From NCBI GenBank assembly GCA_944390315.1, contig CALXPO010000024.1:778-64777 (forward strand): a stretch of DNA of 64,000 nucleotides, given 5' to 3'. The stretch is from an uncultured Alphaproteobacteria bacterium. Lineage in GTDB: Bacteria; Pseudomonadota; Alphaproteobacteria; RF32; CAG-239. A model generated the notes under the pieces. It saw only the letters and a list, made by a program, of their open reading frames with translations. It made no database searches and had not been told where the DNA came from. Of this stretch, positions 6,346-57,987 are shown one piece after another. The position numbers and the translations under genes are program-made. Each line of letters starts with the position of its first letter. Within the stretch, counting starts at the first letter, position 1.

Positions 6346-7344
6346 TTGTTCGAAAGGGTTAATATGAAAAAAAATTCGCTATGGCAAAAAATAAAAGATA
6401 AATTTTGTCACAAATTTATCAAATTGGCTATACTTTCACTTCCCATACTCGGAACAAACGCCGGCGAAAATACTTCACCGCTACCTTCCTCGGATATTGC
6501 CAAGAATAAAGCCTTAACAGAAAAGAGCGTCTCTCCTTCTCGGCAAAATAACTTTGTCCCCCTCAATTCCGATGAAATCATTGCTCAAAAACTTCTTTCC
6601 GAAAAACAAAATATTATCGGAAATTTTAATTTGAACGACAGAGAATTTTCTGCCGAAGATTTGTCACGAATACAACAATGTCCCCTAAACGAACAAATCA
6701 TTAAAACTGCAAAAAAAAATGCCAAACGAGGCGTCCCCGGCTCCGGACAACAAACATACTGTCTCGGCGCCGTTAAGGAATTTTATAGCGCCAACGGAAT
6801 AATTATCGACGCTCAACGTTTTGCATACCGCGCCGTTGATAGTTTGCAGACAAATTCAAACTTTACGGAAATAAACGTTAACATATCAGACTTTGCAAGC
6901 ATGCCTGACGGCGCTCTGATGGCATGGGAAAAAGGCACGACACGCTATGGACATATTGCCATGAAAATCGGCAATAGAGAATATTGCGACTATGTTTATA
7001 ACCTTCATACCAATAATCGCCGCGGAAGAACAGGACAACGTTATGGCAAAGCCCATGTTTTTCTGTTGAAACAAATGCCTCTTACCGAAGATTTTACTCG
7101 TAAATTGATTGCGGAAGGACGGCTGAAAGATGATGTCAGAAAAAGAATTGAAGCTAAAATCAAAACAGATGATATGTATGCCAGATTGAAATATCACCCG
7201 CTAAAAACTTTTGATGTTGCAGATTCTGCTTTATTTCAAAGAAATTCGGCGTCCGTCGAAAGTCCAACTTCGCATTCCCAAAAATATGCGGGAAACCAAT
7301 TTGATATAAACATGATTAAAAAAACAAAAGAGAAATCACGTTAA
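6346..7344 (+). CDS. Secreted hypothetical protein with a putative CHAP/NlpC-P60-like Cys...His motif pair (YCLGAV ... YGHIAMKIG). Candidate amidase or peptidase effector. The start may be Met7 at 6364.
   Basis: Signal-peptide-like N-terminus. Cys and His motifs resemble the CHAP catalytic dyad. Low GC. Confidence 0.45.
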   Translation: MFERVNMKKNSLWQKIKDKFCHKFIKLAILSLPILGTNAGENTSPLPSSDIAKNKALTEKSVSPSRQNNFVPLNSDEIIAQKLLSEKQNIIGNFNLNDREFSAEDLSRIQQCPLNEQIIKTAKKNAKRGVPGSGQQTYCLGAVKEFYSANGIIIDAQRFAYRAVDSLQTNSNFTEINVNISDFASMPDGALMAWEKGTTRYGHIAMKIGNREYCDYVYNLHTNNRRGRTGQRYGKAHVFLLKQMPLTEDFTRKLIAEGRLKDDVRKRIEAKIKTDDMYARLKYHPLKTFDVADSALFQRNSASVESPTSHSQKYAGNQFDINMIKKTKEKSR

Positions 7345-7436: not shown

Positions 7437-8780
7437 ATGGGAAAATTTTCAGCAGATAAAGATTATGCACCGCGCGTCTCAATGCATAGGGATTATGAAC
7501 AGCACAAAAAACGCGGCGAAGCCTTGAGTGCTCGAAAAAAACAAATTCTCAGTAAAAACAAACAGTCTGTCGATAAAAATCGTGTTACCGAACAAACCAA
7601 CATCAGTCAACCAACGCCAAGTAACGTCCCCTCTCTGACCGATGAACAAATTTATTCCAAATTAGAAGAATTAAGTGCAAAATTCAGAGCTACAAACGGT
7701 CAAACCGAAGAAGCCGAATTAAGAAAATTTGCCGAACAATACCACCTCAATTTACGCGTTACGTCCGCTGTTTCAAAAACAGACAAAAGTGCCATTGCTC
7801 GTATGGTCTTTAATGGTGGTGTTGAAAAACCAATGATCGGTTACTCTCCAAAATTCGCCGATATTGCAAATTATCCTTTTAAATATTCCGTAAATCCTAA
7901 AAATCCAGAGGATTACAATTTGGATGATTCTACAATTTGGCAGGCTATGGCCGAAGAACCAAGACTCTTTGAAATGAAAGATAAAATAAAATCGGCTCTC
8001 GCTAAAGCCGGCGTTCCAAAAGAGATTCTTCCCGATATGAATCTAAATGATTTTAAGTACCTCATGTTTAATTATTGCGGTGCTCAGAAAGGTCTCGGTT
8101 TTACGAAGCTGTTTCAGGCAAAAGATGAGAATGGAACACCTCTTACCTATAAAGACAGAAACGGAAGAGATGTTCCTATATGCACCAGCGCAAAACAAGA
8201 AAATGTAATGCGTTTTATGCGCGAAAATCCGCAATTTAAGACCATGCTTATGAAAATGCCCGGCATTAACAGAGCTTATGTCGATACCTTAACCAAAAAA
8301 ATGTCAGAAACGGGGCTGACTGATATGTCCAAAGAACTCGAGCGCCACCCGGAATGGGCAAACCAGCCCGCAATTGACGTACATCATATCATCAATATCA
8401 AAGATTGTCGTTTGCTGGAAGAACAAGGAAAATCTTATGCTGCCGTTAATAATTACGAAAATATGTGTATTGTCAGCAATGGTACTCTGCTCGATGCCGT
8501 TAGTCGCGCCAGAAAAATGTCTTCGGAAAACAAAAATACTTCCGTTCATGCCGGTATTCATACTGCCGACGTTGTCTTCAGCGATAAGACAGATAAAGGT
8601 GATATTAAGCGGACAATGGCACGCCTTGAACCCCAACCCGGAGTTAGATGCATGCTCGGATTTAATGACGATATGATTATTATGGATTCAAATTATCAAC
8701 AGCAAACTAATACTCAATCTAACAATAACAATTCGCAAATGTTTTTCATAAAGCAAAATAACGGAGCCGCAAGAGCATGA
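7437..8780 (+). CDS. Putative polymorphic-toxin-like protein. The C-terminal region carries an HNH/AHH-like nuclease motif (DVHHIINIKD ... NNYEN ... HAGIH).
   Basis: HH dyad, downstream Asn, then an HxxxH-like His, consistent with HNH-superfamily toxin domains. ATGA overlap with a downstream SUKH immunity gene. No match to a housekeeping family. Confidence 0.5.
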   Translation: MGKFSADKDYAPRVSMHRDYEQHKKRGEALSARKKQILSKNKQSVDKNRVTEQTNISQPTPSNVPSLTDEQIYSKLEELSAKFRATNGQTEEAELRKFAEQYHLNLRVTSAVSKTDKSAIARMVFNGGVEKPMIGYSPKFADIANYPFKYSVNPKNPEDYNLDDSTIWQAMAEEPRLFEMKDKIKSALAKAGVPKEILPDMNLNDFKYLMFNYCGAQKGLGFTKLFQAKDENGTPLTYKDRNGRDVPICTSAKQENVMRFMRENPQFKTMLMKMPGINRAYVDTLTKKMSETGLTDMSKELERHPEWANQPAIDVHHIINIKDCRLLEEQGKSYAAVNNYENMCIVSNGTLLDAVSRARKMSSENKNTSVHAGIHTADVVFSDKTDKGDIKRTMARLEPQPGVRCMLGFNDDMIIMDSNYQQQTNTQSNNNNSQMFFIKQNNGAARA

Positions 8781-14300: not shown

Positions 14301-15422
14301 TTATTGTTTCCACCATTTCAAAAAATTATCCCAAACCGAACTCGTCTTGGTCGGTATTGCTTTTTCAGAGTATTTGTTCGCCGGTAACGGAAAAATCTCT
14401 TTACCGTAAGGCGTTAAAACCTGCTTGATATATTCCGTACTGACGCGGCAAGTATGTATTCTTTTAAGCGAAGATTGACAAATATTAAGCCAAGCATCAC
14501 CTTGGGAAAACAAAAATAAAGGATTTTTTGATTTTAAAAATATCTTTGAAAACTCCGTCGGCTGAGATTGAAAGACCAATACCGACAAAAAATCACTTCG
14601 CTGCAAAAAAGAAATTTTTTCATAGTCATTATCCGAAGTCGACAGGACTAAAAAAATTCCACAAGCACCACCTTTTTGCAGCAATAAAGACATATAATTT
14701 TTAATCATAGATTCTTGTTGCATTAGACTGAGAAATTCATCTAAAACAACAATAATATACGGCAATTGTCCGACATGATTATGATAATCTCTGATATGGC
14801 GGCTGCCGCTTTTTTGAAAAAGCAACCGACGCCGTTCCGTTTCTTCGCATAACCAAGCCAAAGTCTCATGAACCTGCTCCGGTGTATTTAAAACCGGTGC
14901 CAACAAATAACTTTGCTGATTATATATATCAAACTCTCCATCGGCATTGAACAGAATGAACTTTATTTCATCTATGTTTTTCTTTAGAACCAAAGACAAA
15001 ATCAACGCCTTCAATGCCGATGTTTTGCCGCAGCCGCTTGTACCTAAAAGCAACAAATGTCGCATTTGATACAAATCAAATACTTGCGGAATACCGCTTA
15101 CATCGGTTCCAAAACAGACGGGCAATAAGGCGTGCGTCTTTTTAAATACTTCACCGGCTGACAAGGTTTCAAAATCAAGGGGGCTTTCCTGTTCAGCCGA
15201 AATTTCCAACAATAAGTTTTCAGTTTCGGGAAGATTCTCGCTAATAACTGACTTGCATCCCAGCTCTTCCATCATTTGCGGAATAATTTTTTCCAGCTCA
15301 CGGCTTTGATTTTCATCTATCCATACCAGCTCGGCCAACTCACATCTCGGTCCGCGACCTTGATGAATCATCTTGACTTTTAACCCGTGGACGTTCAAGT
15401 AATTTGCAACTTGCGATATCAC
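14301..15422 (-). CDS. FtsK/SpoIIIE-like P-loop ATPase. Motor-domain core only: no membrane anchor and no gamma domain.
   Basis: Walker A (LLLGTSGCGKTS), Walker B (YIIVVLDEF) and a GIFLVLSTS block align with the FtsK alpha/beta motor. At 373 aa it lacks the terminal domains. Confidence 0.65.
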   Translation of the reverse strand: MISQVANYLNVHGLKVKMIHQGRGPRCELAELVWIDENQSRELEKIIPQMMEELGCKSVISENLPETENLLLEISAEQESPLDFETLSAGEVFKKTHALLPVCFGTDVSGIPQVFDLYQMRHLLLLGTSGCGKTSALKALILSLVLKKNIDEIKFILFNADGEFDIYNQQSYLLAPVLNTPEQVHETLAWLCEETERRRLLFQKSGSRHIRDYHNHVGQLPYIIVVLDEFLSLMQQESMIKNYMSLLLQKGGACGIFLVLSTSDNDYEKISFLQRSDFLSVLVFQSQPTEFSKIFLKSKNPLFLFSQGDAWLNICQSSLKRIHTCRVSTEYIKQVLTPYGKEIFPLPANKYSEKAIPTKTSSVWDNFLKWWKQ

Positions 15423-41307: not shown

Positions 41308-42114
41308 CTACTTTCTTCCCATCATTTCTCTTTTTAATGCCATTAGGTTGAGAACATCATCTTCGCGCCAAGCCGCGTTTGCTCGTTGGGTTAATTTTTC
41401 ACAACGTTTTATATGCTCCTCCATAGGTATTAATTCTATATTCTCTATAAATTTGTCAAAATCATCACCCGTCTTAAATGAGGGCTCTTTTTTACCAAAC
41501 TCGTATATCTCAATCGGATAGTTCTTTTCTATTGCTTGACGAACAAAATCTTCTACCGCTACCGAAACATTTAGCGAAACACTAGGCTTAACCGCCAGCG
41601 GATTTCCCGTCGGATAGCCAAACTTTTCTCTTAATGCTCTGTGCTTAGTGAAAGCATCATCCATATCCATTTTACGTTCAACAACATTCATCGCTGCTTG
41701 ATACTCATCGGCTAGAACGACTTTTGTCTTAGTCTTATATCCCATATTCTGCATATGCTCTATCATTTTTACCGTATTTTGAATAACCGAAGTATCATAA
41801 ACAATATCCATATGTTTTTTCACGGCCGCTTTATAAATTTCATTTGAAACTTTGGTCGCGAATCGACTTATATCCGAATCATAAAAATCATCCCTGATAT
41901 CGTAACCAAGCATTCTGACGTATTCGGCAATGACGTTATCCGAAGAGATAACCACCGCATTTTTGATACCTGCCGCTAAAGTTGATTTACCTGACCCCGG
42001 CGCACCGACCAAAGCATAAAATGTCGGATCCGTCGACGGTGTTTTTCCGGCCAAGGCTTTTTGCACCATTTGTTCGGTAAAGGCTTGTTGTTCATCTTCG
42101 GCTAATTCCAGCAT
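41308..42114 (-). CDS. P-loop NTPase / zeta-toxin-like kinase family protein. The start was chosen at MLELAEDEQ, 1 nt after the rarA stop. The longest ORF extends to 42198.
   Basis: Walker A (LVGAPGSGKSTLA) and zeta/AAA_33-like organisation. Translational coupling to rarA. Confidence 0.5.
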   Translation of the reverse strand: MLELAEDEQQAFTEQMVQKALAGKTPSTDPTFYALVGAPGSGKSTLAAGIKNAVVISSDNVIAEYVRMLGYDIRDDFYDSDISRFATKVSNEIYKAAVKKHMDIVYDTSVIQNTVKMIEHMQNMGYKTKTKVVLADEYQAAMNVVERKMDMDDAFTKHRALREKFGYPTGNPLAVKPSVSLNVSVAVEDFVRQAIEKNYPIEIYEFGKKEPSFKTGDDFDKFIENIELIPMEEHIKRCEKLTQRANAAWREDDVLNLMALKREMMGRK

Positions 42115-42115
42115 T

Positions 42116-43456
42116 TCAGTCCTCCTTGGGTTTATTTTTATTTTTTTCATAACGGAGTTTTTCAAAATACTCCACTCTTTTTTTGACTTCTCTCTCAAAT
42201 CCTCTTTCGACCGGATAGTAGAGTTTTTGACGGCTTATACCGTCAGGAAAATAATTTTGTCCCGAAAAGCCGTCTTCCAGATCTTGATCATAAATATAGC
42301 CTTCGTGATAGCCCAAATTTTTCATTAATTTGGTCGGAGCATTCAAAATATGTTTCGGCGGCATCAATGAACCTGTCTTTTTTGCCAAATCAAACGCTTT
42401 GTGCATTGCTTTGTATACACCTGCCGACTTGGGCGCCGTCGCCAGATAAACCGTCAGCTGCATCAAAGCCAAATCACCTTCGGGCGAGCCTAAACGCTCA
42501 TAAGTCTGCCAACAAGAGATTGCTTGCGTAACCGCATTGGGGTCAGCCATTGAAACATCTTCTACCGCAAATCGGGTTAAACGGCGAAAAATATATTTCG
42601 GGTCCTCCCCCGCATCTATCATCCGCGCTACCCAATACAGCGCCGCATCAACATCGGAACCTCGCAGAGACTTATGAACCGCCGATATTAAATTATAATG
42701 CCCGTCTCGTCCTTTATCGTATATCGGAGCTCGTGAACGAATAATTTTTAACAAGGCTTCTTTATCAAAAATTTCGCCTTCTTTGGCATAATTAAATACA
42801 CTTTCCGCTAAATTTAAGATATATCTGCCGTCACCGTCGGCGGTTGCTTTCATCAATTCACGAGCTTCGTCATCAACAGGCAATTTACGCCCGACTTCTT
42901 TTTCGGCACGTTTGAGCAATTCTTCAAAATTATCGGAACTTAATCTATTGAGTACAAAGACCTGACAGCGTGATAAAAGCGCCGCATTGAGTTCAAAGGA
43001 TGGATTTTCGGTAGTTGCACCGACCAAAATAATCGTACCGTCTTCAACATAAGGCAAAAAACCGTCTTGTTGGGACTTGTTAAAACGATGAATTTCATCA
43101 ACAAATAACAACGTCCCCTGTCCCTGATTGGCACGTCTGTCTTCAGCGTACTGAAAAACCCTTTTTAGATCAGCTACCCCGGAAAATACAGCGGAAATTT
43201 GTTCAAAATATAGATTGGTATGCTCGGCAATCAATCGTGCAATCGTCGTTTTGCCGCAACCGGGAGGTCCCCATAAAATAAATGAAGTTATTTTTCCAGA
43301 TTTTAGCATTCTTCCCAAAGGTGCATCCGGACCGACAACTTGGTCTTGACCGACGACTTCGCTTAAATCCTTCGGACGTAATCTGTCTGCCAGCGGACGC
43401 TTTATTTTTTGTGAAAATAATGTCTCTTCCATCTTCCACCTATCTCTGATATCCAC
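42116..43456 (-). CDS. rarA: Replication-associated recombination protein A (RarA/MgsA AAA+ ATPase).
   Basis: Walker A (GPPGCGKTT), Walker B (LFVDEIHRF) and a MgsA C-terminal domain. Confidence 0.9.
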   Translation of the reverse strand: MDIRDRWKMEETLFSQKIKRPLADRLRPKDLSEVVGQDQVVGPDAPLGRMLKSGKITSFILWGPPGCGKTTIARLIAEHTNLYFEQISAVFSGVADLKRVFQYAEDRRANQGQGTLLFVDEIHRFNKSQQDGFLPYVEDGTIILVGATTENPSFELNAALLSRCQVFVLNRLSSDNFEELLKRAEKEVGRKLPVDDEARELMKATADGDGRYILNLAESVFNYAKEGEIFDKEALLKIIRSRAPIYDKGRDGHYNLISAVHKSLRGSDVDAALYWVARMIDAGEDPKYIFRRLTRFAVEDVSMADPNAVTQAISCWQTYERLGSPEGDLALMQLTVYLATAPKSAGVYKAMHKAFDLAKKTGSLMPPKHILNAPTKLMKNLGYHEGYIYDQDLEDGFSGQNYFPDGISRQKLYYPVERGFEREVKKRVEYFEKLRYEKNKNKPKED

Positions 43457-45068
43457 CGCGGTCGCGAGAAGTTATCATATCTTGATTCTCTTTCTGGCGT
43501 CTTTTATTTTCTAAAACTCGACGCTTGCGTTCTTCTATAACACTGCGCAATTCTTCTTTATTGGCTCGGTTCTGCTCTCTGATTTTTGCCAAAGCCTCTT
43601 CATCCGTCGCAGGACCTTTGTCCCGTTTTTGATGTTTAAAAACTTTTTGACCTAATTTAACTAAGTTATCAACATCCATTCCCTTAAAACCACCGACGTT
43701 ATAAACACCGAAATTGCGTGCATCCCCTAAGAATAAGTCGGTAAAATCAATTCCTTTCATGCCGCCTTTGCGTGTTTTTTTCTTCGGAGCTAAAATTTGT
43801 TTTATTTCCATGGCCGAAGGTACGCGTCCCAAGGCTTGAGCAATTTGCTCGGGCGTAATAATACATTCACTCAAATCAAGTTCGGCAATATTAACACCGG
43901 TAAAATCTACTCCCGTAAAATCAACACCGCGTAAATTGAGCTTGCTTAAATCTATTTTTTTCAAATCCAGCAAAGTCAGATTAATGCGGCTCAGATTAAG
44001 TTTGTGCGGATAGTAGGTTGCCAAATATTCTATCAGTTTTTGCAGCTCTTCAAGACTGATTTCGTCCATCGTTATGTCAAGTAAAATGGCATCTTGGAAA
44101 TAGACATCAGTCAGAACAACATTATCCATTTTGGCACCGGTAAAGTTGGTACCTATCAATTGTGCGCCGGCAAAAACCGCTCCCGTCAAATCTGCTCCCG
44201 AAAGATTGGTGTTGGTCAGATTGGCTCCAGAAAAATCAGCTCCGGACAAATTGGAACCCGAAAAATTAACCCCTGACAAATTGGCTGCCGAAAAGTTGGC
44301 ATTAGACAAATCTTCGTGATCAAACTCACCGTTTTCCAAGTTTTTGCCGTTAAATTCAATATTTAATATCGGCAAATCATCTTCGGGACGACGTGATACG
44401 GCATGCCATGGATCAGGATCCCCATCGTCATCATCAGGTGGCAAAGACTTTTTATCTTCTTCATCATCGCTACCTTCGTCACCATCATCTTCTTCATCAT
44501 CGCGACGATGGTAATCGTCATCTTCATCATCATCGCTACCTTCATCACCATCATCATCTTCATCATCGCGATGGCGGTAATCGTCATCTTCTTCATCATC
44601 ACGACGGCGGTAATCATCATCTTCTTCATCATCGCGACGACGGTAATCATCATCTTCTTCATCACCTCTGCGGCGGCGGCAATCATCATCTTCTTCATCA
44701 TCGCGGCGGCGGTAATCATCATCTTCTTCATCATCGCGGCGGCGGTAATCGTTACCTTCTTCATCACCTCTGCGGCGGCGGTAATCGTTACCTTCTTCAT
44801 CACCTCTGCGGCGGCGGTAATCGTTACCTTCTTCATCACCTCTGCGGCGGCGGTAATCATATACTTTGTTATGAGCTTTCTTGCCTTCAGCCGCTTCATA
44901 TTGTACTTTTTTTCTTTTTATTCTTGATTTCTTTTTTTCGCGCGCTATTTTTTCTTGCTCTTCATCACAAATAGCAAAAGCATAATCATCGCCGCTTGAT
45001 TGCATAGCGGCTCGCGTTCTGTCCCTAATTGCTTTTAGAGCGGCAATTTTTTCTTCGTCCGTTGCCAT
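43440..45068 (-). CDS. Pentapeptide-repeat protein with an N-terminal array of highly charged 12-aa tandem repeats (DYRRRRGDEEGN / DYRRRDDEEDDD). Candidate secreted effector.
   Basis: Two blocks of A(D/N)LSG-type pentapeptide repeats. A 36-bp DNA tandem array encodes the charged repeats. Confidence 0.7.
   Translation of the reverse strand: MATDEEKIAALKAIRDRTRAAMQSSGDDYAFAICDEEQEKIAREKKKSRIKRKKVQYEAAEGKKAHNKVYDYRRRRGDEEGNDYRRRRGDEEGNDYRRRRGDEEGNDYRRRDDEEDDDYRRRDDEEDDDCRRRRGDEEDDDYRRRDDEEDDDYRRRDDEEDDDYRHRDDEDDDGDEGSDDDEDDDYHRRDDEEDDGDEGSDDEEDKKSLPPDDDDGDPDPWHAVSRRPEDDLPILNIEFNGKNLENGEFDHEDLSNANFSAANLSGVNFSGSNLSGADFSGANLTNTNLSGADLTGAVFAGAQLIGTNFTGAKMDNVVLTDVYFQDAILLDITMDEISLEELQKLIEYLATYYPHKLNLSRINLTLLDLKKIDLSKLNLRGVDFTGVDFTGVNIAELDLSECIITPEQIAQALGRVPSAMEIKQILAPKKKTRKGGMKGIDFTDLFLGDARNFGVYNVGGFKGMDVDNLVKLGQKVFKHQKRDKGPATDEEALAKIREQNRANKEELRSVIEERKRRVLENKRRQKENQDMITSRDRGGYQR
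44484..44862. repeat. In-frame 36-bp tandem repeat array of about 10 units. The last three units (44736-44843) are perfect copies. The array lies inside the pentapeptide-repeat gene.
   Basis: Direct reading: GCGGCGGCGGTAATCGTTACCTTCTTCATCACCTCT occurs three times exactly, with progressively diverged upstream units. Confidence 0.85.
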
Positions 45069-45137
45069 TTTTCACCTTTGCAATTTTTATCTGACAATTT
45101 TATATTCTAGCTTATTAATTCGTATTTTACAAATATT

Positions 45138-45695
45138 TTATATATTTTCGTCAAAAAAATCGCCACCGATAATTTTTTGAACAATATCATACCCAAAGCC
45201 TGCCCGAAGCATTGTCCTTATATCTTTCACGCGATAAAGTTTACATTGCTCTTCATCTTTACGATACGGGCCTATTTTCTTCTTACGTGCAAAATTCATT
45301 GCCGCGGCTTCTTCATCTATTTCCGAGGCTGATAATATTTTGTCAACAATTCCCTTATCAATACCCTTTTGTATCAGTTTTTGCCTAATGTAAAACTCTG
45401 ATTTTCCGGCCGCCAAATAATCCGCAATTTTTTGCTCAGCATATCGATTGTCATCAAGATATCCCCAACGTTCAAAATCATTAATAATTTCTTCAACCCA
45501 AGCAAATGCCGTTTGGCTGGAAAAATCTGAATTTTTGTAACCATATTTCAATATCCGTCTCTTTAACACGTCTCTCAAATTTTCTTTTGAAGAATCAAAG
45601 CGTTGCAAATAATATAAAGCTATATTTTGTAGCCGCTGCCGCGTCATTTTCTTTTCTCGATTGGCAAAATCACTCTTTTTTTGTTCATTTTCCAT
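45138..45695 (-). CDS. recX: Regulatory protein RecX (tentative).
   Basis: Three-helical-repeat pattern (ALYYLQRFDSSKENLRDVLKRR...) resembling RecX. Confidence 0.6.
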   Translation of the reverse strand: MENEQKKSDFANREKKMTRQRLQNIALYYLQRFDSSKENLRDVLKRRILKYGYKNSDFSSQTAFAWVEEIINDFERWGYLDDNRYAEQKIADYLAAGKSEFYIRQKLIQKGIDKGIVDKILSASEIDEEAAAMNFARKKKIGPYRKDEEQCKLYRVKDIRTMLRAGFGYDIVQKIIGGDFFDENI

Positions 45696-56364: not shown

Positions 56365-57987
56365 ATGGTCGCTAAATCAGTCAAGAAAAAGCCCTCCCAC
56401 AAAAATTTATCTTTAGAAACAAGAATTATTACAACTTTTGCTCTTATCGAATTTTTTAAAACCGATGCCAAAAATATTAGTGGAAATGATTTGCAAGAAA
56501 TCCTTGATAAAATTAATCAGCTAACTCAGCAAGCCTATGATAATGACGATATGCAAGCCTTTGATATTCTTCGTGAGCATAATCTTGACGGCATTAGCAA
56601 TATTAGTGAACTTAAAAGCAAAATCCACCGCAATCGAGTCATAAATATGTACAAACAACTCGGCTACTTCGGATTATCTCAAGGTACTACCAAAGAATAC
56701 CAAATGTCATCCATTGAAACTTTAGCAACCATGATGTATGTTGCTAATGTAAAAAATGCCGATGAAATCGCAGAAAAACTTGTTACTAAAACTTTAACCG
56801 ATGAGGAAGCCGAGCTCTTACAAGCAAATATTTCCGGAGGATTGGGAAATCTTAAAAAATGCCTTATTAAAGACTTTGAAAGATATAAATATAAAAATCA
56901 AGCCAATCCTATAATCTCAGAAATAGCTAAAGATATTGAAGAGTATGTTTTTGATGAAAATAAAAAAATCCAAGTATCTTATAAAGTAAAAGATTCCAAA
57001 AAACCTTTTCGAAAAAAATTACGCGAAAATTTTAATACTTCCTCTAAACCTGAATTTCTCAAACTTATCGGTACTATGCTTACAGAAGGCAAAAATGCGG
57101 CTCAAGCAAGTTCTCGTGCTTCAAATTATAACCAATTTTGCCAGATTTTATCTAATCAATATCCTCAAAAAGATATTAATAAACTTGTGGACAATGCTCT
57201 CGGAATATCAATATCAGAAGCCGATAAAGAAAAAGCTGAACAACTCCGAATCGACGCTTACAGAAAAAAATGCGAAAATCTTTATTTCAAAACCGTGGCC
57301 GGAATGCTCTCACAAAAATATGAATATAATCAAACTCATAAAATTCAAACCGACTATGATGTCTACTTAAAAATTATAGATTCTCGCTATATAAAGGATT
57401 TGTGTGACGGTAAAAACAATGTTTATATGCTAGCTTTTCAGGATCCTGACTATCAACAACAATACGAAAATATGGCTGCTGAAAAAAAACTTAATAAAGA
57501 ATTCAGAGATGACACAGCCGAAAAACAACTGATTTCTGTTCATCATAATACCGTGACCATAGGATCTGCATACGATTTTTGCAGTAAATTTTTTCCTACC
57601 TTTGACGAGGAACAAAAAATGCAAAAATGCACCGAGTTGGCAAATATTTTCGGAAATTTCACCTATGTTATAGGACAAGATGTACACCAATCCCTTGAAC
57701 CTCAAGGTACAATCGAAATCGGCGCTACTCCTAAGTCTATGCTCATGGCTACCAACATTGACCCTCAGGCCTTAAAAAATATATCACCTGCATTACCAAA
57801 GTACATGCAAGAAGGATTAAAACAACGTTTTAAATTCAACAATAATGATATCAATAAAAGAAGAGTATATGAATATATGCAACTTCCCGAAGCCAAAGAT
57901 ATTACTTTCTTACGGCAAAATGTTATTAAAGATAAACAACATGTTTCTGCCATGCAAAAATTCACTCGTTATAATAAAGAATATTAA
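56365..57987 (+). CDS. Hypothetical 540-aa orphan protein in a low-GC island. No signal peptide. Candidate effector.
   Basis: Long uninterrupted ORF with a plausible RBS. GC is markedly below flanking core genes. Bidirectional terminator at 58090-58126. Confidence 0.5.
   Translation: MVAKSVKKKPSHKNLSLETRIITTFALIEFFKTDAKNISGNDLQEILDKINQLTQQAYDNDDMQAFDILREHNLDGISNISELKSKIHRNRVINMYKQLGYFGLSQGTTKEYQMSSIETLATMMYVANVKNADEIAEKLVTKTLTDEEAELLQANISGGLGNLKKCLIKDFERYKYKNQANPIISEIAKDIEEYVFDENKKIQVSYKVKDSKKPFRKKLRENFNTSSKPEFLKLIGTMLTEGKNAAQASSRASNYNQFCQILSNQYPQKDINKLVDNALGISISEADKEKAEQLRIDAYRKKCENLYFKTVAGMLSQKYEYNQTHKIQTDYDVYLKIIDSRYIKDLCDGKNNVYMLAFQDPDYQQQYENMAAEKKLNKEFRDDTAEKQLISVHHNTVTIGSAYDFCSKFFPTFDEEQKMQKCTELANIFGNFTYVIGQDVHQSLEPQGTIEIGATPKSMLMATNIDPQALKNISPALPKYMQEGLKQRFKFNNNDINKRRVYEYMQLPEAKDITFLRQNVIKDKQHVSAMQKFTRYNKEY

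What the first reader, a model, noticed from the sequence alone, without database searches (positions are those of the whole stretch)
43440..45068. Pentapeptide-repeat protein with a hyper-charged 12-aa tandem-repeat (VNTR) array. Candidate host-directed effector.
The N-terminal roughly 200 aa are a near-pure D/E/R/Y repeat (DYRRRRGDEEGN then DYRRRDDEEDDD), encoded by a 36-bp array of about 10 units whose last three are perfect, which predicts copy-number variation. The C-terminus has two pentapeptide-repeat beta-helix blocks. It has no signal peptide and starts overlapping rarA. This architecture is typical of secreted effectors of intracellular bacteria.
Basis: partly seen in the sequence, partly recalled or inferred. 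Interest (0 to 1): 0.65.

Follow-up and report, generated by a model that had tools for sequence, protein, structure and literature searches.

The report
Repeat-expanded pentapeptide protein, gut alphaproteobacterium
This gene encodes a strongly conserved cytoplasmic beta-helix (pentapeptide-repeat) protein of uncultured gut Alphaproteobacteria whose disordered acidic linker was recently enlarged by a tandem DNA repeat; the evidence argues against a host-directed effector, but its relatives in sister species are always paired with an orphan VirD4-like secretion ATPase, and that pairing has not been described.

Summary
A 542-aa ORF lies on the minus strand at 43440-45068. It has two pentapeptide-repeat blocks and a 405-bp in-frame tandem array (44454-44858; units of 36, 33, 66 and 63 bp; three perfect 36-bp and two perfect 33-bp copies). 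The array encodes DY-RRR(R)-acidic blocks.

The effector interpretation is not supported. The gene is the ortholog of a family found in at least 180 species-level genomes of uncultured gut and rumen Alphaproteobacteria. It always sits in the same chromosomal neighbourhood (recX ... PRP ... rarA). dN/dS is 0.00-0.02 on the folded part.

The array lies in a linker that is 0-35 aa long in distant relatives and 18-181 aa long, acidic and poor in Arg, in the window's clade. Independent tandem arrays arose in other lineages.

In every relative outside the window's clade, the PRP gene is translationally coupled to a divergent VirD4-like coupling ATPase, usually preceded by a lipoprotein with weak SPOR-domain matches. 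No VirB genes were seen in the flanks examined. The window's clade has lost both partner genes from the locus.

My best reading is a cytoplasmic scaffold or regulator of type IV coupling protein (T4CP) ancestry, carrying a recently slipped, length-variable polyampholyte linker. Copy-number variation is plausible but unproven: the only other assembly breaks inside the array.

The parts
43440..45068 (-). Whole PRP gene (542 aa plus stop)
   Evidence: ORF list. RBS and ATG read. Pfam. More than 1293 homologs.
45104..45132 (-). Sigma-70-like promoter match (TTGTAA-17-TAGAAT) in the 69-nt recX-PRP spacer
   Evidence: It matches 9 of 12 positions, and the number of such sites in the region is not above chance, so this is only a candidate.
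44997..45056 (-). Conserved N-terminal helix (aa 5-24, DEEKIAALKAIRDRTRA)
   Evidence: AF2 helix 5-24. Conserved across the window's clade.
44859..44963 (-). Lys-rich helix (aa 36-70, including KKKSRIKRKK), not seen in the compared relatives
   Evidence: The linkers of relatives lack it.
44454..44858 (-). Tandem array: 10 units of 36/33/66/63 bp encoding DY-RRR(R)-acidic blocks (aa 71-205). Net charge -43. Predicted disordered.
   Evidence: pLDDT is below 50 for most of aa 87-208.
44751..44858 (-). Three perfect 36-bp copies (DYRRRRGDEEGN, net charge 0)
   Evidence: 3 exact matches, 0.00 expected by chance.
44379..44453 (-). Acidic and Pro-rich junction with the family-wide Trp motif (PDPWHAVS)
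   Evidence: W221 is invariant in 118 sequences. A related motif, GW..DP, is present even in distant PRPs.
44064..44366 (-). Pentapeptide-repeat block 1 (aa about 235-335)
   Evidence: Pfam. AF2 pLDDT 90-97.
44013..44063 (-). Alpha-helical insert (aa 336-352, ISLEELQKLIEYLATYY)
   Evidence: AF2 helix 336-352. Nearly invariant residues in this stretch.
43869..44012 (-). Repeat block 2 (aa 353-400, LNLSRINLTLLDL...GVDFTGVDFTG)
   Evidence: Pfam stretches. TRF 15-bp period. pLDDT above 90.
43605..43868 (-). Family-specific C-terminal module (SECIITPEQIAQALGRVP ... ILAPKKK ... IDFTDLF ...)
   Evidence: Invariant columns. Only about 25 clusters at 50% identity match it over the full length, in 1.84 billion representatives.
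43443..43604 (-). Basic coiled-coil tail with an Arg-rich C-terminus (...RKRRVLENKRRQKE...SRDRGGYQR)
   Evidence: AF2 helix 489-535. Tail net charge is +13 here and +3 to +17 across the family; ends of the type R[GD]R..R or a basic tail are conserved.
42116..43432 (-). rarA/mgsA, the downstream gene, 5-10 nt after the PRP stop in all 28 loci of the clade
   Evidence: Pfam MgsA_C 2.8e-62. Gap table.
45138..45695 (-). recX, the upstream gene
   Evidence: Pfam RecX_HTH2. Synteny.

Best explanation
The ORF is one species' ortholog of a lineage-restricted, cytoplasmic pentapeptide-repeat (PRP) protein of uncultured gut Alphaproteobacteria.

Family architecture: an N-terminal helix, a linker, an acidic beta-helix in two blocks, a family-specific alpha module, and a basic coiled-coil tail.

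In sister lineages the gene is translationally coupled to a chromosomal VirD4-like coupling ATPase with no VirB genes in the flanks examined, and is usually preceded by a lipoprotein with weak SPOR matches. In the window's clade these two partner genes were lost from the locus. The PRP gene stayed, under strong purifying selection, between recX and rarA. The loop between its N-terminal helix and the beta-helix then grew into a long acidic disordered linker.

In this genome the linker was further enlarged by recent in-frame slippage or unequal recombination of a 33/36-bp unit. A related motif occurs once in relatives (YRRADDEEDY in L003).

Inferred mechanism (not shown):
- The rigid acidic beta-helix is a docking, DNA-like surface.
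- The basic tail oligomerises or binds the partner.
- The array is a length-variable polyampholyte tether with Tyr/Arg stickers between acidic blocks. It tunes intramolecular contacts (acidic linker with basic tail) or multivalent contacts.
- The array is not a catalytic, targeting or secretion domain.
For: Shown:
- PRP fold and domain order.
- The family occurs in 180 species-level genomes, all gut or rumen MAGs.
- Synteny recX-PRP-rarA, with a 5-10 nt gap to rarA in 28 of 28 loci of the clade.
- PRP-T4CP coupling, gap -41 to +26 nt, in all 54 other loci with a T4CP. Among independently fetched T4CP loci with room upstream, all but one (L106, probably chimeric) have a PRP-like gene upstream, including pairs only about 30% identical that sit in other neighbourhoods.
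- T4CP identity: Pfam PF02534 E=1.8e-22. The AF2 model's best structural matches are Cagbeta, DotL and TrwB.
- No T4CP or lipoprotein gene in the window or in L001-L028.
- Linker length is 0-35 aa outside the clade, against 18-181 aa (198 aa in the window) inside it. Short-linker members of the clade (L022, L023, L025) already lack the T4CP gene.
- dN/dS is 0.00-0.02 for core plus tail and 0.07-0.32 for the linker.
- The array is young: perfect copies, and synonymous-only differences between some units.
- Independent arrays exist in L002 (45 bp x 4, 97% match), L065/L083 (45 bp x 3.1, in the C-terminal tail) and L012.
- Arg fraction is 0-8% in the long linkers of the clade, against 19% here.
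Against: - No experiment or interaction prediction links the PRP to any partner.
- Loss of the T4CP from whole genomes of the window's clade is inferred only from the locus and from the near-absence of PRP-less T4CP loci. Whole genomes were not searched.
- The rooting of the RarA tree is uncertain, and L027 falls outside the clade.
- The role given to the array rests on composition only.
- Retention of the PRP after T4CP loss fits poorly with a pure T4CP regulator, so a second, unknown function has to be assumed.
Confidence: 0.5

Rival explanations
1. T4SS substrate or host-directed effector. The basic Arg-rich C-terminus is a VirD4-type translocation signal, and the protein is exported through a T4SS encoded elsewhere in the genome. 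The repeat array and the KKKSRIKRKK patch act in a target cell.
For: Orthologs are operon partners of a VirD4-like ATPase. The basic C-terminus is conserved family-wide. From my own knowledge, untested here: VirB/D4 substrates carry positively charged C-terminal signals (Vergunst et al. 2005). PRP-containing secreted effectors exist: Rickettsia SrfD has two PRP blocks plus coiled coils and binds host Sec61 (PMC11258249). PipB/PipB2 and NleL/SopA appear among the weak hits.
Against: No T4CP or T4SS gene lies in the 64-kb window or in any of the 28 loci of the clade. No VirB genes lie next to the T4CP in relatives. dN/dS of 0.00-0.02 is atypical for effectors. The gene is single-copy and syntenic among housekeeping genes. 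All relatives found are gut or rumen MAGs with no sign of an intracellular lifestyle. PipB and PipB2 scores are far below cut-off.
Confidence: 0.12
2. DNA-mimic regulator of DNA enzymes, working like Qnr/MfpA. The acidic beta-helix and the polyanionic linker would imitate DNA and modulate gyrase, RarA, RecA/RecX or, ancestrally, the DNA-binding T4CP.
For: The beta-helix core has net charge -10 to -27 and the linker reaches -67. MfpA, Qnr, AlbG and EfsQnr are among the fold and sequence hits. The gene sits between recX and rarA in all loci and is probably co-transcribed with rarA. T4CPs are DNA-dependent ATPases related to FtsK (my own knowledge).
Against: Scores are far below the Qnr and MfpA family cut-offs. 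The architecture is about 2.5 times larger, with extra domains. Neighbours change in distant lineages (pepN context) while only the T4CP stays, so the link to recX and rarA may be mere synteny. The window's array adds Arg blocks that lower the negative charge density.
Confidence: 0.2
3. The exact array is an assembly product or a selectively neutral recent expansion with no functional meaning. Copy number is not a biological variable.
For: The only other assembly has a 100-N gap in the array and five differences in the adjacent 86 nt, while the flanks are identical. The unit was not found in the metagenome contig collection. Three related species (L007-L009) keep a 118-aa linker of constant length.
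Against: The array keeps the reading frame. Its units differ by synonymous changes and by whole-codon indels. The conserved N-terminal helix and the core stay in one ORF. Linker dN/dS of 0.07-0.32 shows that the linker is not free of constraint.
Confidence: 0.1

Closest known systems
Qnr / MfpA / AlbG / McbG topoisomerase-protecting pentapeptide-repeat proteins
   Same: Right-handed quadrilateral beta-helix made of pentapeptide repeats. Net acidic. Cytoplasmic.
   Different: Scores are far below the family cut-offs: Qnr 44.7 against 240, MfpA 42.5 against 360. This protein is 542 aa, against about 180-220 aa. It has an N-terminal helix, a disordered linker, a helical insert, a family-specific alpha module and a basic coiled coil. 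No mfpB-type neighbour was seen.
CagZ-Cagbeta of Helicobacter pylori (a small partner protein that regulates a VirD4-type coupling ATPase; PDB 8dol, PMC9886983)
   Same: In relatives, a gene next to the T4CP gene encodes a soluble partner candidate. Cagbeta is the best structural match of the relatives' T4CP model.
   Different: CagZ is not a PRP. The Cag system has a full T4SS. No VirB genes were seen near the T4CP in the flanks examined, and the window's clade has no T4CP gene at the locus at all.
Canonical VirD4 in VirB-type T4SS clusters of alphaproteobacterial plasmids (e.g. Erythrobacter aureus NZ_CP031358)
   Same: These are the nearest plasmid relatives of the partner ATPase.
   Different: Only 21-25% identity. 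They are embedded in VirB4, VirB8, VirB9, VirB10 and VirB11 genes, with no PRP gene among the annotated products. The gut-alphaproteobacterial ATPase is chromosomal, lies among housekeeping genes, and almost always has a PRP gene upstream.
PRP-containing secreted effectors: Rickettsia SrfD, Salmonella PipB/PipB2, E. coli NleL and Salmonella SopA (N-terminal beta-helix)
   Same: PRP blocks combined with coiled coils. SrfD has two PRP blocks and two coiled coils (PMC11258249).
   Different: No homology beyond the repeats: PipB 61.9 bits against 274, PipB2 42.8 against 354. No secretion system is visible. Strong purifying selection and housekeeping synteny.
DotG/IcmE (pentapeptide-repeat region in a type IVB secretion core protein)
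   Same: A PRP segment in a T4SS-associated protein. It appears among the sequence hits.
   Different: 25 bits against a cut-off of 750. DotG is a VirB10-like envelope protein, whereas this protein has no membrane segment.
PopZ-type hub proteins of Alphaproteobacteria (from my own knowledge, not tested)
   Same: The order N-terminal helix, then an acidic disordered linker of variable length, then a helical oligomerisation region.
   Different: No sequence relation was tested. PopZ has no beta-helix. This is only a 'works like' lead for the role of the linker.

Membership tests
Pentapeptide-repeat proteins (Pfam PF00805) | Tandem A(D/N)LXX-type repeats scoring above the Pfam gathering threshold | tested here: met
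   136.2 bits against a cut-off of 20.2, five stretches.
Pentapeptide-repeat proteins (Pfam PF00805) | Right-handed quadrilateral beta-helix fold | tested here: met
   AF2 pLDDT above 90 over aa 235-430. Foldseek top hits are all PRP structures.
Qnr / MfpA | Score at or above the NCBIfam equivalog cut-off | tested here: not met
   Qnr 44.7 against 240. MfpA 42.5 against 360.
Qnr / MfpA | A protein of about 180-220 aa that is a single beta-helix with a C-terminal dimerisation helix | tested here: not met
   542 aa with five additional modules.
Qnr / MfpA | Binds or protects DNA gyrase | not testable with these tools
   Needs biochemistry.
VirB/VirD4 (type IVA) secretion substrate | A cognate T4CP and T4SS in the same genome | tested here: inconclusive
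   None in the 64-kb window or in the 28 loci of the clade. Present next to orthologs in other clades. The whole genome was not available.
VirB/VirD4 (type IVA) secretion substrate | Positively charged C-terminal tail | tested here: met
   Tail net charge +13, ending SRDRGGYQR. Basic C-termini occur across the family. This feature is not specific.
VirB/VirD4 (type IVA) secretion substrate | Demonstrated translocation | not testable with these tools
   Needs a reporter assay.
SPI-2 effectors PipB / PipB2 | Score at or above the NCBIfam equivalog cut-off | tested here: not met
   61.9 against 274. 42.8 against 354.
VNTR / length-variable coding repeat | Head-to-tail, near-identical units whose lengths are multiples of three | tested here: met
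   Units of 36, 33, 66 and 63 bp. Five perfect copies.
VNTR / length-variable coding repeat | Different unit number or order between strains | tested here: inconclusive
   L001 has identical flanks, differs inside the array and contains a 100-N gap. No other assembly of the species was found.
Anti-phage defence systems (PADLOC) | A match to a defence-system protein model | tested here: not met
   No hit for the PRP. Only a P-loop-level hit for the partner ATPase.

The most novel reading that the evidence does not exclude
The PRP family is the dedicated cargo, plug or adaptor of a domesticated chromosomal VirD4-like ATPase. With the lipoprotein that shows weak SPOR and OEP matches, it would form a previously undescribed two- or three-gene envelope module in gut Alphaproteobacteria. 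The DNA-like beta-helix with a basic C-terminal signal would stand in for the relaxase-DNA substrate. In the window's clade the motor was lost, and the freed PRP evolved a repeat-driven polyampholyte linker that could drive condensate formation or a new binding function.
Probability: 0.2. Interest if true: 0.7.

Novelty: new variant of a known kind. Interest (0 to 1): 0.42.

Why it matters
The window gene itself is a pentapeptide-repeat protein of unknown function with a young coding tandem repeat. That is useful as a strain marker and as a natural experiment in how disordered linkers grow, but it is not a virulence lead.

The wider result is of more interest. A VirD4-type coupling ATPase has no VirB genes in the flanks examined and almost always has a pentapeptide-repeat gene upstream. 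The pair is conserved among housekeeping genes across many uncultured gut Alphaproteobacteria, and the ATPase was then lost from the locus in one clade while the PRP was kept under strong constraint. The six literature searches run here found no description of this pairing. It gives a testable entry point into what coupling ATPases do outside secretion machines, and into the function of a PRP family.

Tried and rejected
- Named PRP families were rejected on curated cut-offs: Qnr, MfpA, HetL, PipB, PipB2 and DotG.
- Defence-system models gave no meaningful hit (PADLOC).
- Sequence search of the PDB with the T4CP found nothing, either as a single sequence or as a profile. Only the fold search identified it.
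- Foldseek of the PRP model gave generic PRP hits and nothing for the C-terminal module.
- phmmer of the C-terminal 213 aa against 1.84 billion representatives found no full-length relatives outside about 25 clusters. Lower hits were repeat matches in giant proteins.
- The metagenome scan for the repeat unit found 0 hits, so copy number could not be compared across samples.
- My first reading, that L001 carries two extra units, was wrong. Exact prefix and suffix comparison shows only that the array differs and is gapped.
- The first tblastn with the 'PRPcore' query was out of frame and was redone.
- The plasmid search with the PRP C-terminal half (aa 330-542) gave no match.
- Literature searches for PRP with T4CP or VirD4, and for RF32 or CAG-239 biology, found nothing on this pairing.
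- L106, the one T4CP locus without an upstream PRP, is a 1.5x-coverage contig with a truncated T4CP next to an OmpR-type regulator. It is probably chimeric.
Full report
1. OBSERVATION

The ORF at 43440-45068 lies on the minus strand. It encodes 542 aa and starts at an ATG preceded by AAGGTGA. Pfam finds pentapeptide repeats (PF00805, E=2.2e-40, five stretches).

An AlphaFold2 model built on 118 homologs gives:
- a helix at aa 5-24
- a Lys-rich helix at aa 36-81
- a disordered stretch, pLDDT below 50 for most of aa 87-208
- a confident beta-helix at aa 235-430 (pLDDT above 90), interrupted by a helix at 336-352
- a weaker alpha region
- a long basic helix at aa 489-535

Foldseek against the PDB returns only pentapeptide-repeat structures.

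Tandem Repeats Finder reports an array at 44454-44860 with periods 33, 36 and 102 and scores 426-457. Unit by unit, the array spans aa 71-205:
- three perfect 36-bp units (DYRRRRGDEEGN, net charge 0)
- two perfect 33-bp units (DYRRRDDEEDD, net charge -4)
- one hybrid 36-bp unit (DCRRRRGDEEDD)
- two 33-bp units that differ only by synonymous changes
- a 66-bp and a 63-bp unit

Both unit types have a chance expectation of 0.00 matches. All unit lengths are multiples of three. The alternative-frame ORFs inside the array are artefacts of its periodicity.

- The second unit is 11 aa, not 12.
- The first 70 aa are not repeat.
- It is the gene's 3' end, not its start, that meets rarA. Judged from relatives, the conserved rarA start is the ATG at 43432, eight bases after the PRP stop.

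2. WHOSE GENE IT IS

A protein search returned more than 1293 hits. The named ones are mostly 'MAG: Alphaproteobacteria bacterium' pentapeptide-repeat proteins of about 360-500 aa. A scan of one genome per species found relatives in 180 genomes. The 80 best are all gut or rumen MAGs (human, mouse, Hadza, deer, yak, cattle) with labels such as uncultured Alphaproteobacteria, 'Azospirillum sp. 51_20' and 'Proteobacteria bacterium CAG:495'. The best identity is 82-86%.

A sample of 20 other ORFs in the window has ordinary housekeeping and cell-envelope Pfam matches: MdoG, a family-2 glycosyltransferase, MreB, PBP2, AnmK, MlaE, RecN, GltX, TyrRS, Fe-ADH and U32 peptidases. IleRS is annotated on the identical contig L001. 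Nothing points to an intracellular lifestyle.

phmmer with the C-terminal 213 aa against 1.84 billion representatives found only about 25 clusters (at 50% identity) that match over the full length. The family is therefore lineage-restricted, not universal.

3. CONTEXT AND THE UNEXPECTED PARTNER

In the window and 27 related loci (L001-L028; PRP core 66-100% identical) the order is apaG, a 205-aa lipoprotein gene on the opposite strand, recX, PRP, rarA, often a zeta-like kinase gene, then rluC. The gap between PRP and rarA is 5-10 nt.

In the other 53 species-level loci (PRP 53-62% identical) and in L083, the PRP gene is the middle gene of a trio: a lipoprotein of about 584 aa with weak SPOR matches, the PRP, and a protein of about 785 aa. 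The gap from the PRP stop to the start of the third gene is -41 to +26 nt, mostly 2-9 nt.

The third protein has N-terminal transmembrane helices and the Walker A motif GETGCGKTS. It matches Pfam T4SS-DNA_transf (E=1.8e-22). It falls far below every NCBIfam equivalog cut-off and has no sequence-level PDB hit. Its AF2 model (pLDDT 77.7) matches best H. pylori Cagbeta in complex with CagZ, Legionella DotL, and TrwB. It is therefore a divergent VirD4-type coupling protein (T4CP).

The nearest plasmid relatives are 21-25% identical. The one examined sits in a canonical VirB4, VirB8, VirB9, VirB10, VirB11 cluster with no PRP among the annotated products. In the gut Alphaproteobacteria no VirB gene lies within the flanks examined.

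A separate scan starting from the T4CP fetched 70 metagenome loci. Among those with room upstream, every one except L106 carries a PRP-like gene upstream. L106 is a 1.5x-coverage contig that is probably chimeric. The set includes pairs only about 30% identical to the reference that sit beside pepN instead of rarA. The PRP-T4CP pair is thus conserved while the neighbours change. This is the strongest functional lead for the family.

4. WHAT HAPPENED IN THE WINDOW'S CLADE

tblastn finds neither the T4CP nor the long lipoprotein in the 64-kb window or in L001-L028. On a RarA neighbour-joining tree these loci form one group, apart from L027. T4CP-bearing lineages occupy several deep branches, so loss is the more parsimonious reading. 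The rooting is uncertain.

Linker length between the N-terminal helix and the Trp motif:
- 0-35 aa in T4CP-bearing lineages
- 18-181 aa in the window's clade, rich in Asp, Glu and Tyr, with an Arg fraction of 0-8%
- 198 aa in the window, with net charge -43 and 19% Arg

Three short-linker members of the clade (L022, L023, L025) already lack the T4CP gene. Loss therefore preceded the linker expansion.

Related motifs occur once in relatives: YRRADDEEDY in L003 and EFRRDDDTYDD in L006. This is consistent with lineage-specific amplification of such a motif.

Strong, young arrays of unrelated units occur in L002 (45 bp x 4, 97% match, DAPEDDYSEDDGDYA), in L065/L083 (45 bp x 3.1, EQQRREVELERQREQ, in the C-terminal tail), and more weakly in L012. 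Slippage in the charged disordered segments is therefore recurrent in the family.

Selection: in six species pairs of the clade, dN/dS is 0.00-0.02 for core plus tail and 0.07-0.32 for the linker. The protein is strongly constrained even without an adjacent T4CP gene.

5. COPY-NUMBER VARIATION

The only other assembly of this locus is L001, an ENA scaffold. Its first 301 nt and last 1209 nt of the gene are identical to the window, as are about 8 kb of flanks. It has a 100-N gap inside the array and five differences in the 86 nt that follow the gap, including DC to DY and a different unit type. This fits either array-specific change or short-read misassembly. The copy number in L001 is unknown.

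The repeat unit was not found in the metagenome contig collection. Three sister species (L007-L009) keep a 118-aa linker of constant length, so not every linker in the family is unstable.

6. MECHANISM

Shown:
- the fold
- the domain order
- the charge layout: beta-helix core -10 to -27, tail +3 to +17, basic C-terminus
- the conserved pairing with a T4CP in relatives
- the loss of that partner from the locus here
- strong purifying selection
- recent in-frame amplification

Inferred: the protein is a cytoplasmic docking or regulatory scaffold whose ancestral client is the coupling ATPase. This is analogous to CagZ acting on Cagbeta (PMC9886983). In the window's clade it has kept or gained a T4CP-independent role. 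The array would be a length-variable polyampholyte tether. Tyr and Arg can act as 'sticker' residues (my own knowledge), here set between acidic blocks. The tether would modulate contacts with the protein's own basic tail or with partners.

I put this reading at about 0.5. The rivals are:
- a T4SS substrate or effector (0.12)
- a Qnr/MfpA-like DNA mimic acting on gyrase, RarA or RecA (0.2)
- an assembly or neutral artefact as regards the exact array (0.1)

The evidence for and against each is given in the structured fields.

7. COMPARISON WITH KNOWN FAMILIES, NOVELTY AND VERDICT

It is a member of the pentapeptide-repeat superfamily. It is not a member of any named PRP family: the Qnr, MfpA, PipB, PipB2, HetL and DotG cut-offs are all missed. 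It has no hit to defence-system models.

Six literature searches found nothing on a pairing of PRP with VirD4 or a T4CP, or on the biology of these gut Alphaproteobacteria. They did retrieve Rickettsia SrfD and cREM-4, which are PRP-containing secreted or candidate effectors.

Verdict:
- The effector interpretation is not supported.
- The VNTR prediction is plausible but unproven.
- The window gene is a new variant of a known kind, of moderate interest (0.42).
- The PRP-orphan-T4CP module seen in relatives is the more novel lead.

Noticed in passing
L029-L081, L083-L150 (e.g. L049 3093-8423): A conserved chromosomal trio: a lipoprotein of about 584 aa with weak SPOR and OEP matches, the PRP, and a divergent VirD4-like coupling ATPase of about 785 aa. 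No VirB genes lie in the flanks examined. The PRP-T4CP pair persists even in lineages where the neighbours differ (pepN context, L126 and L137).
   Followed up: partly
L083 6356-7693 (also in L065 and L082): A 445-aa protein with a HEMSH (HExxH-like) motif and no Pfam hit is inserted between the T4CP gene and rarA in one sub-lineage. The PRP there carries a C-terminal 45-bp tandem array (EQQRREVELERQREQ).
   Followed up: no
window 44363-44974, both strands: Three long ORFs in alternative frames (178, 193 and 174 aa) lie entirely inside the repeat array. They are artefacts of the periodic sequence, not genes.
   Followed up: yes
window 43432-43456: The longest rarA ORF starts at the GTG at 43456 and would overlap the PRP gene. 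Relatives show that the conserved start (MEETLFS) is the ATG at 43432, 8 nt after the PRP stop.
   Followed up: yes
window 41308-42198 (-): A zeta-toxin / AAA_33-like P-loop kinase gene lies directly after rarA. It is conserved in most loci of the window's clade and absent or diverged in many others. No antitoxin-like partner was looked for.
   Followed up: no
window 14301-15422 (-): A short (373-aa) stand-alone protein with an FtsK/SpoIIIE domain lies upstream of an Mla transporter gene. Its role is unknown.
   Followed up: no
window 7437-8780 (+), 6346-7344 (+), 56365-57987 (+): Three sizeable ORFs (447, 332 and 540 aa) have no Pfam match at E<=1e-5.
   Followed up: no
window 44913-44942 (aa 43-52): A Lys/Arg patch (KKKSRIKRKK) precedes the array and is absent from the compared relatives. 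It resembles a nuclear-localisation-type basic cluster, but it could equally be part of a charged single helix (AF2 helix 36-81).
   Followed up: partly
L021 and L056: These records are labelled 'Bacteroidaceae bacterium' and 'Lactobacillaceae bacterium' but carry the same alphaproteobacterial recX-PRP-rarA synteny. The contigs are probably mis-binned.
   Followed up: no
L012-L028 linkers, and window aa 26-37: Short conserved motifs sit inside the otherwise variable linker: LEEDDSFPPHEDFEED in one sub-clade, and GEDGAFAVCDEEE (window: GDDYAFAICDEEQ) in the window's sub-clade. They may be partner-binding linear motifs.
   Followed up: no
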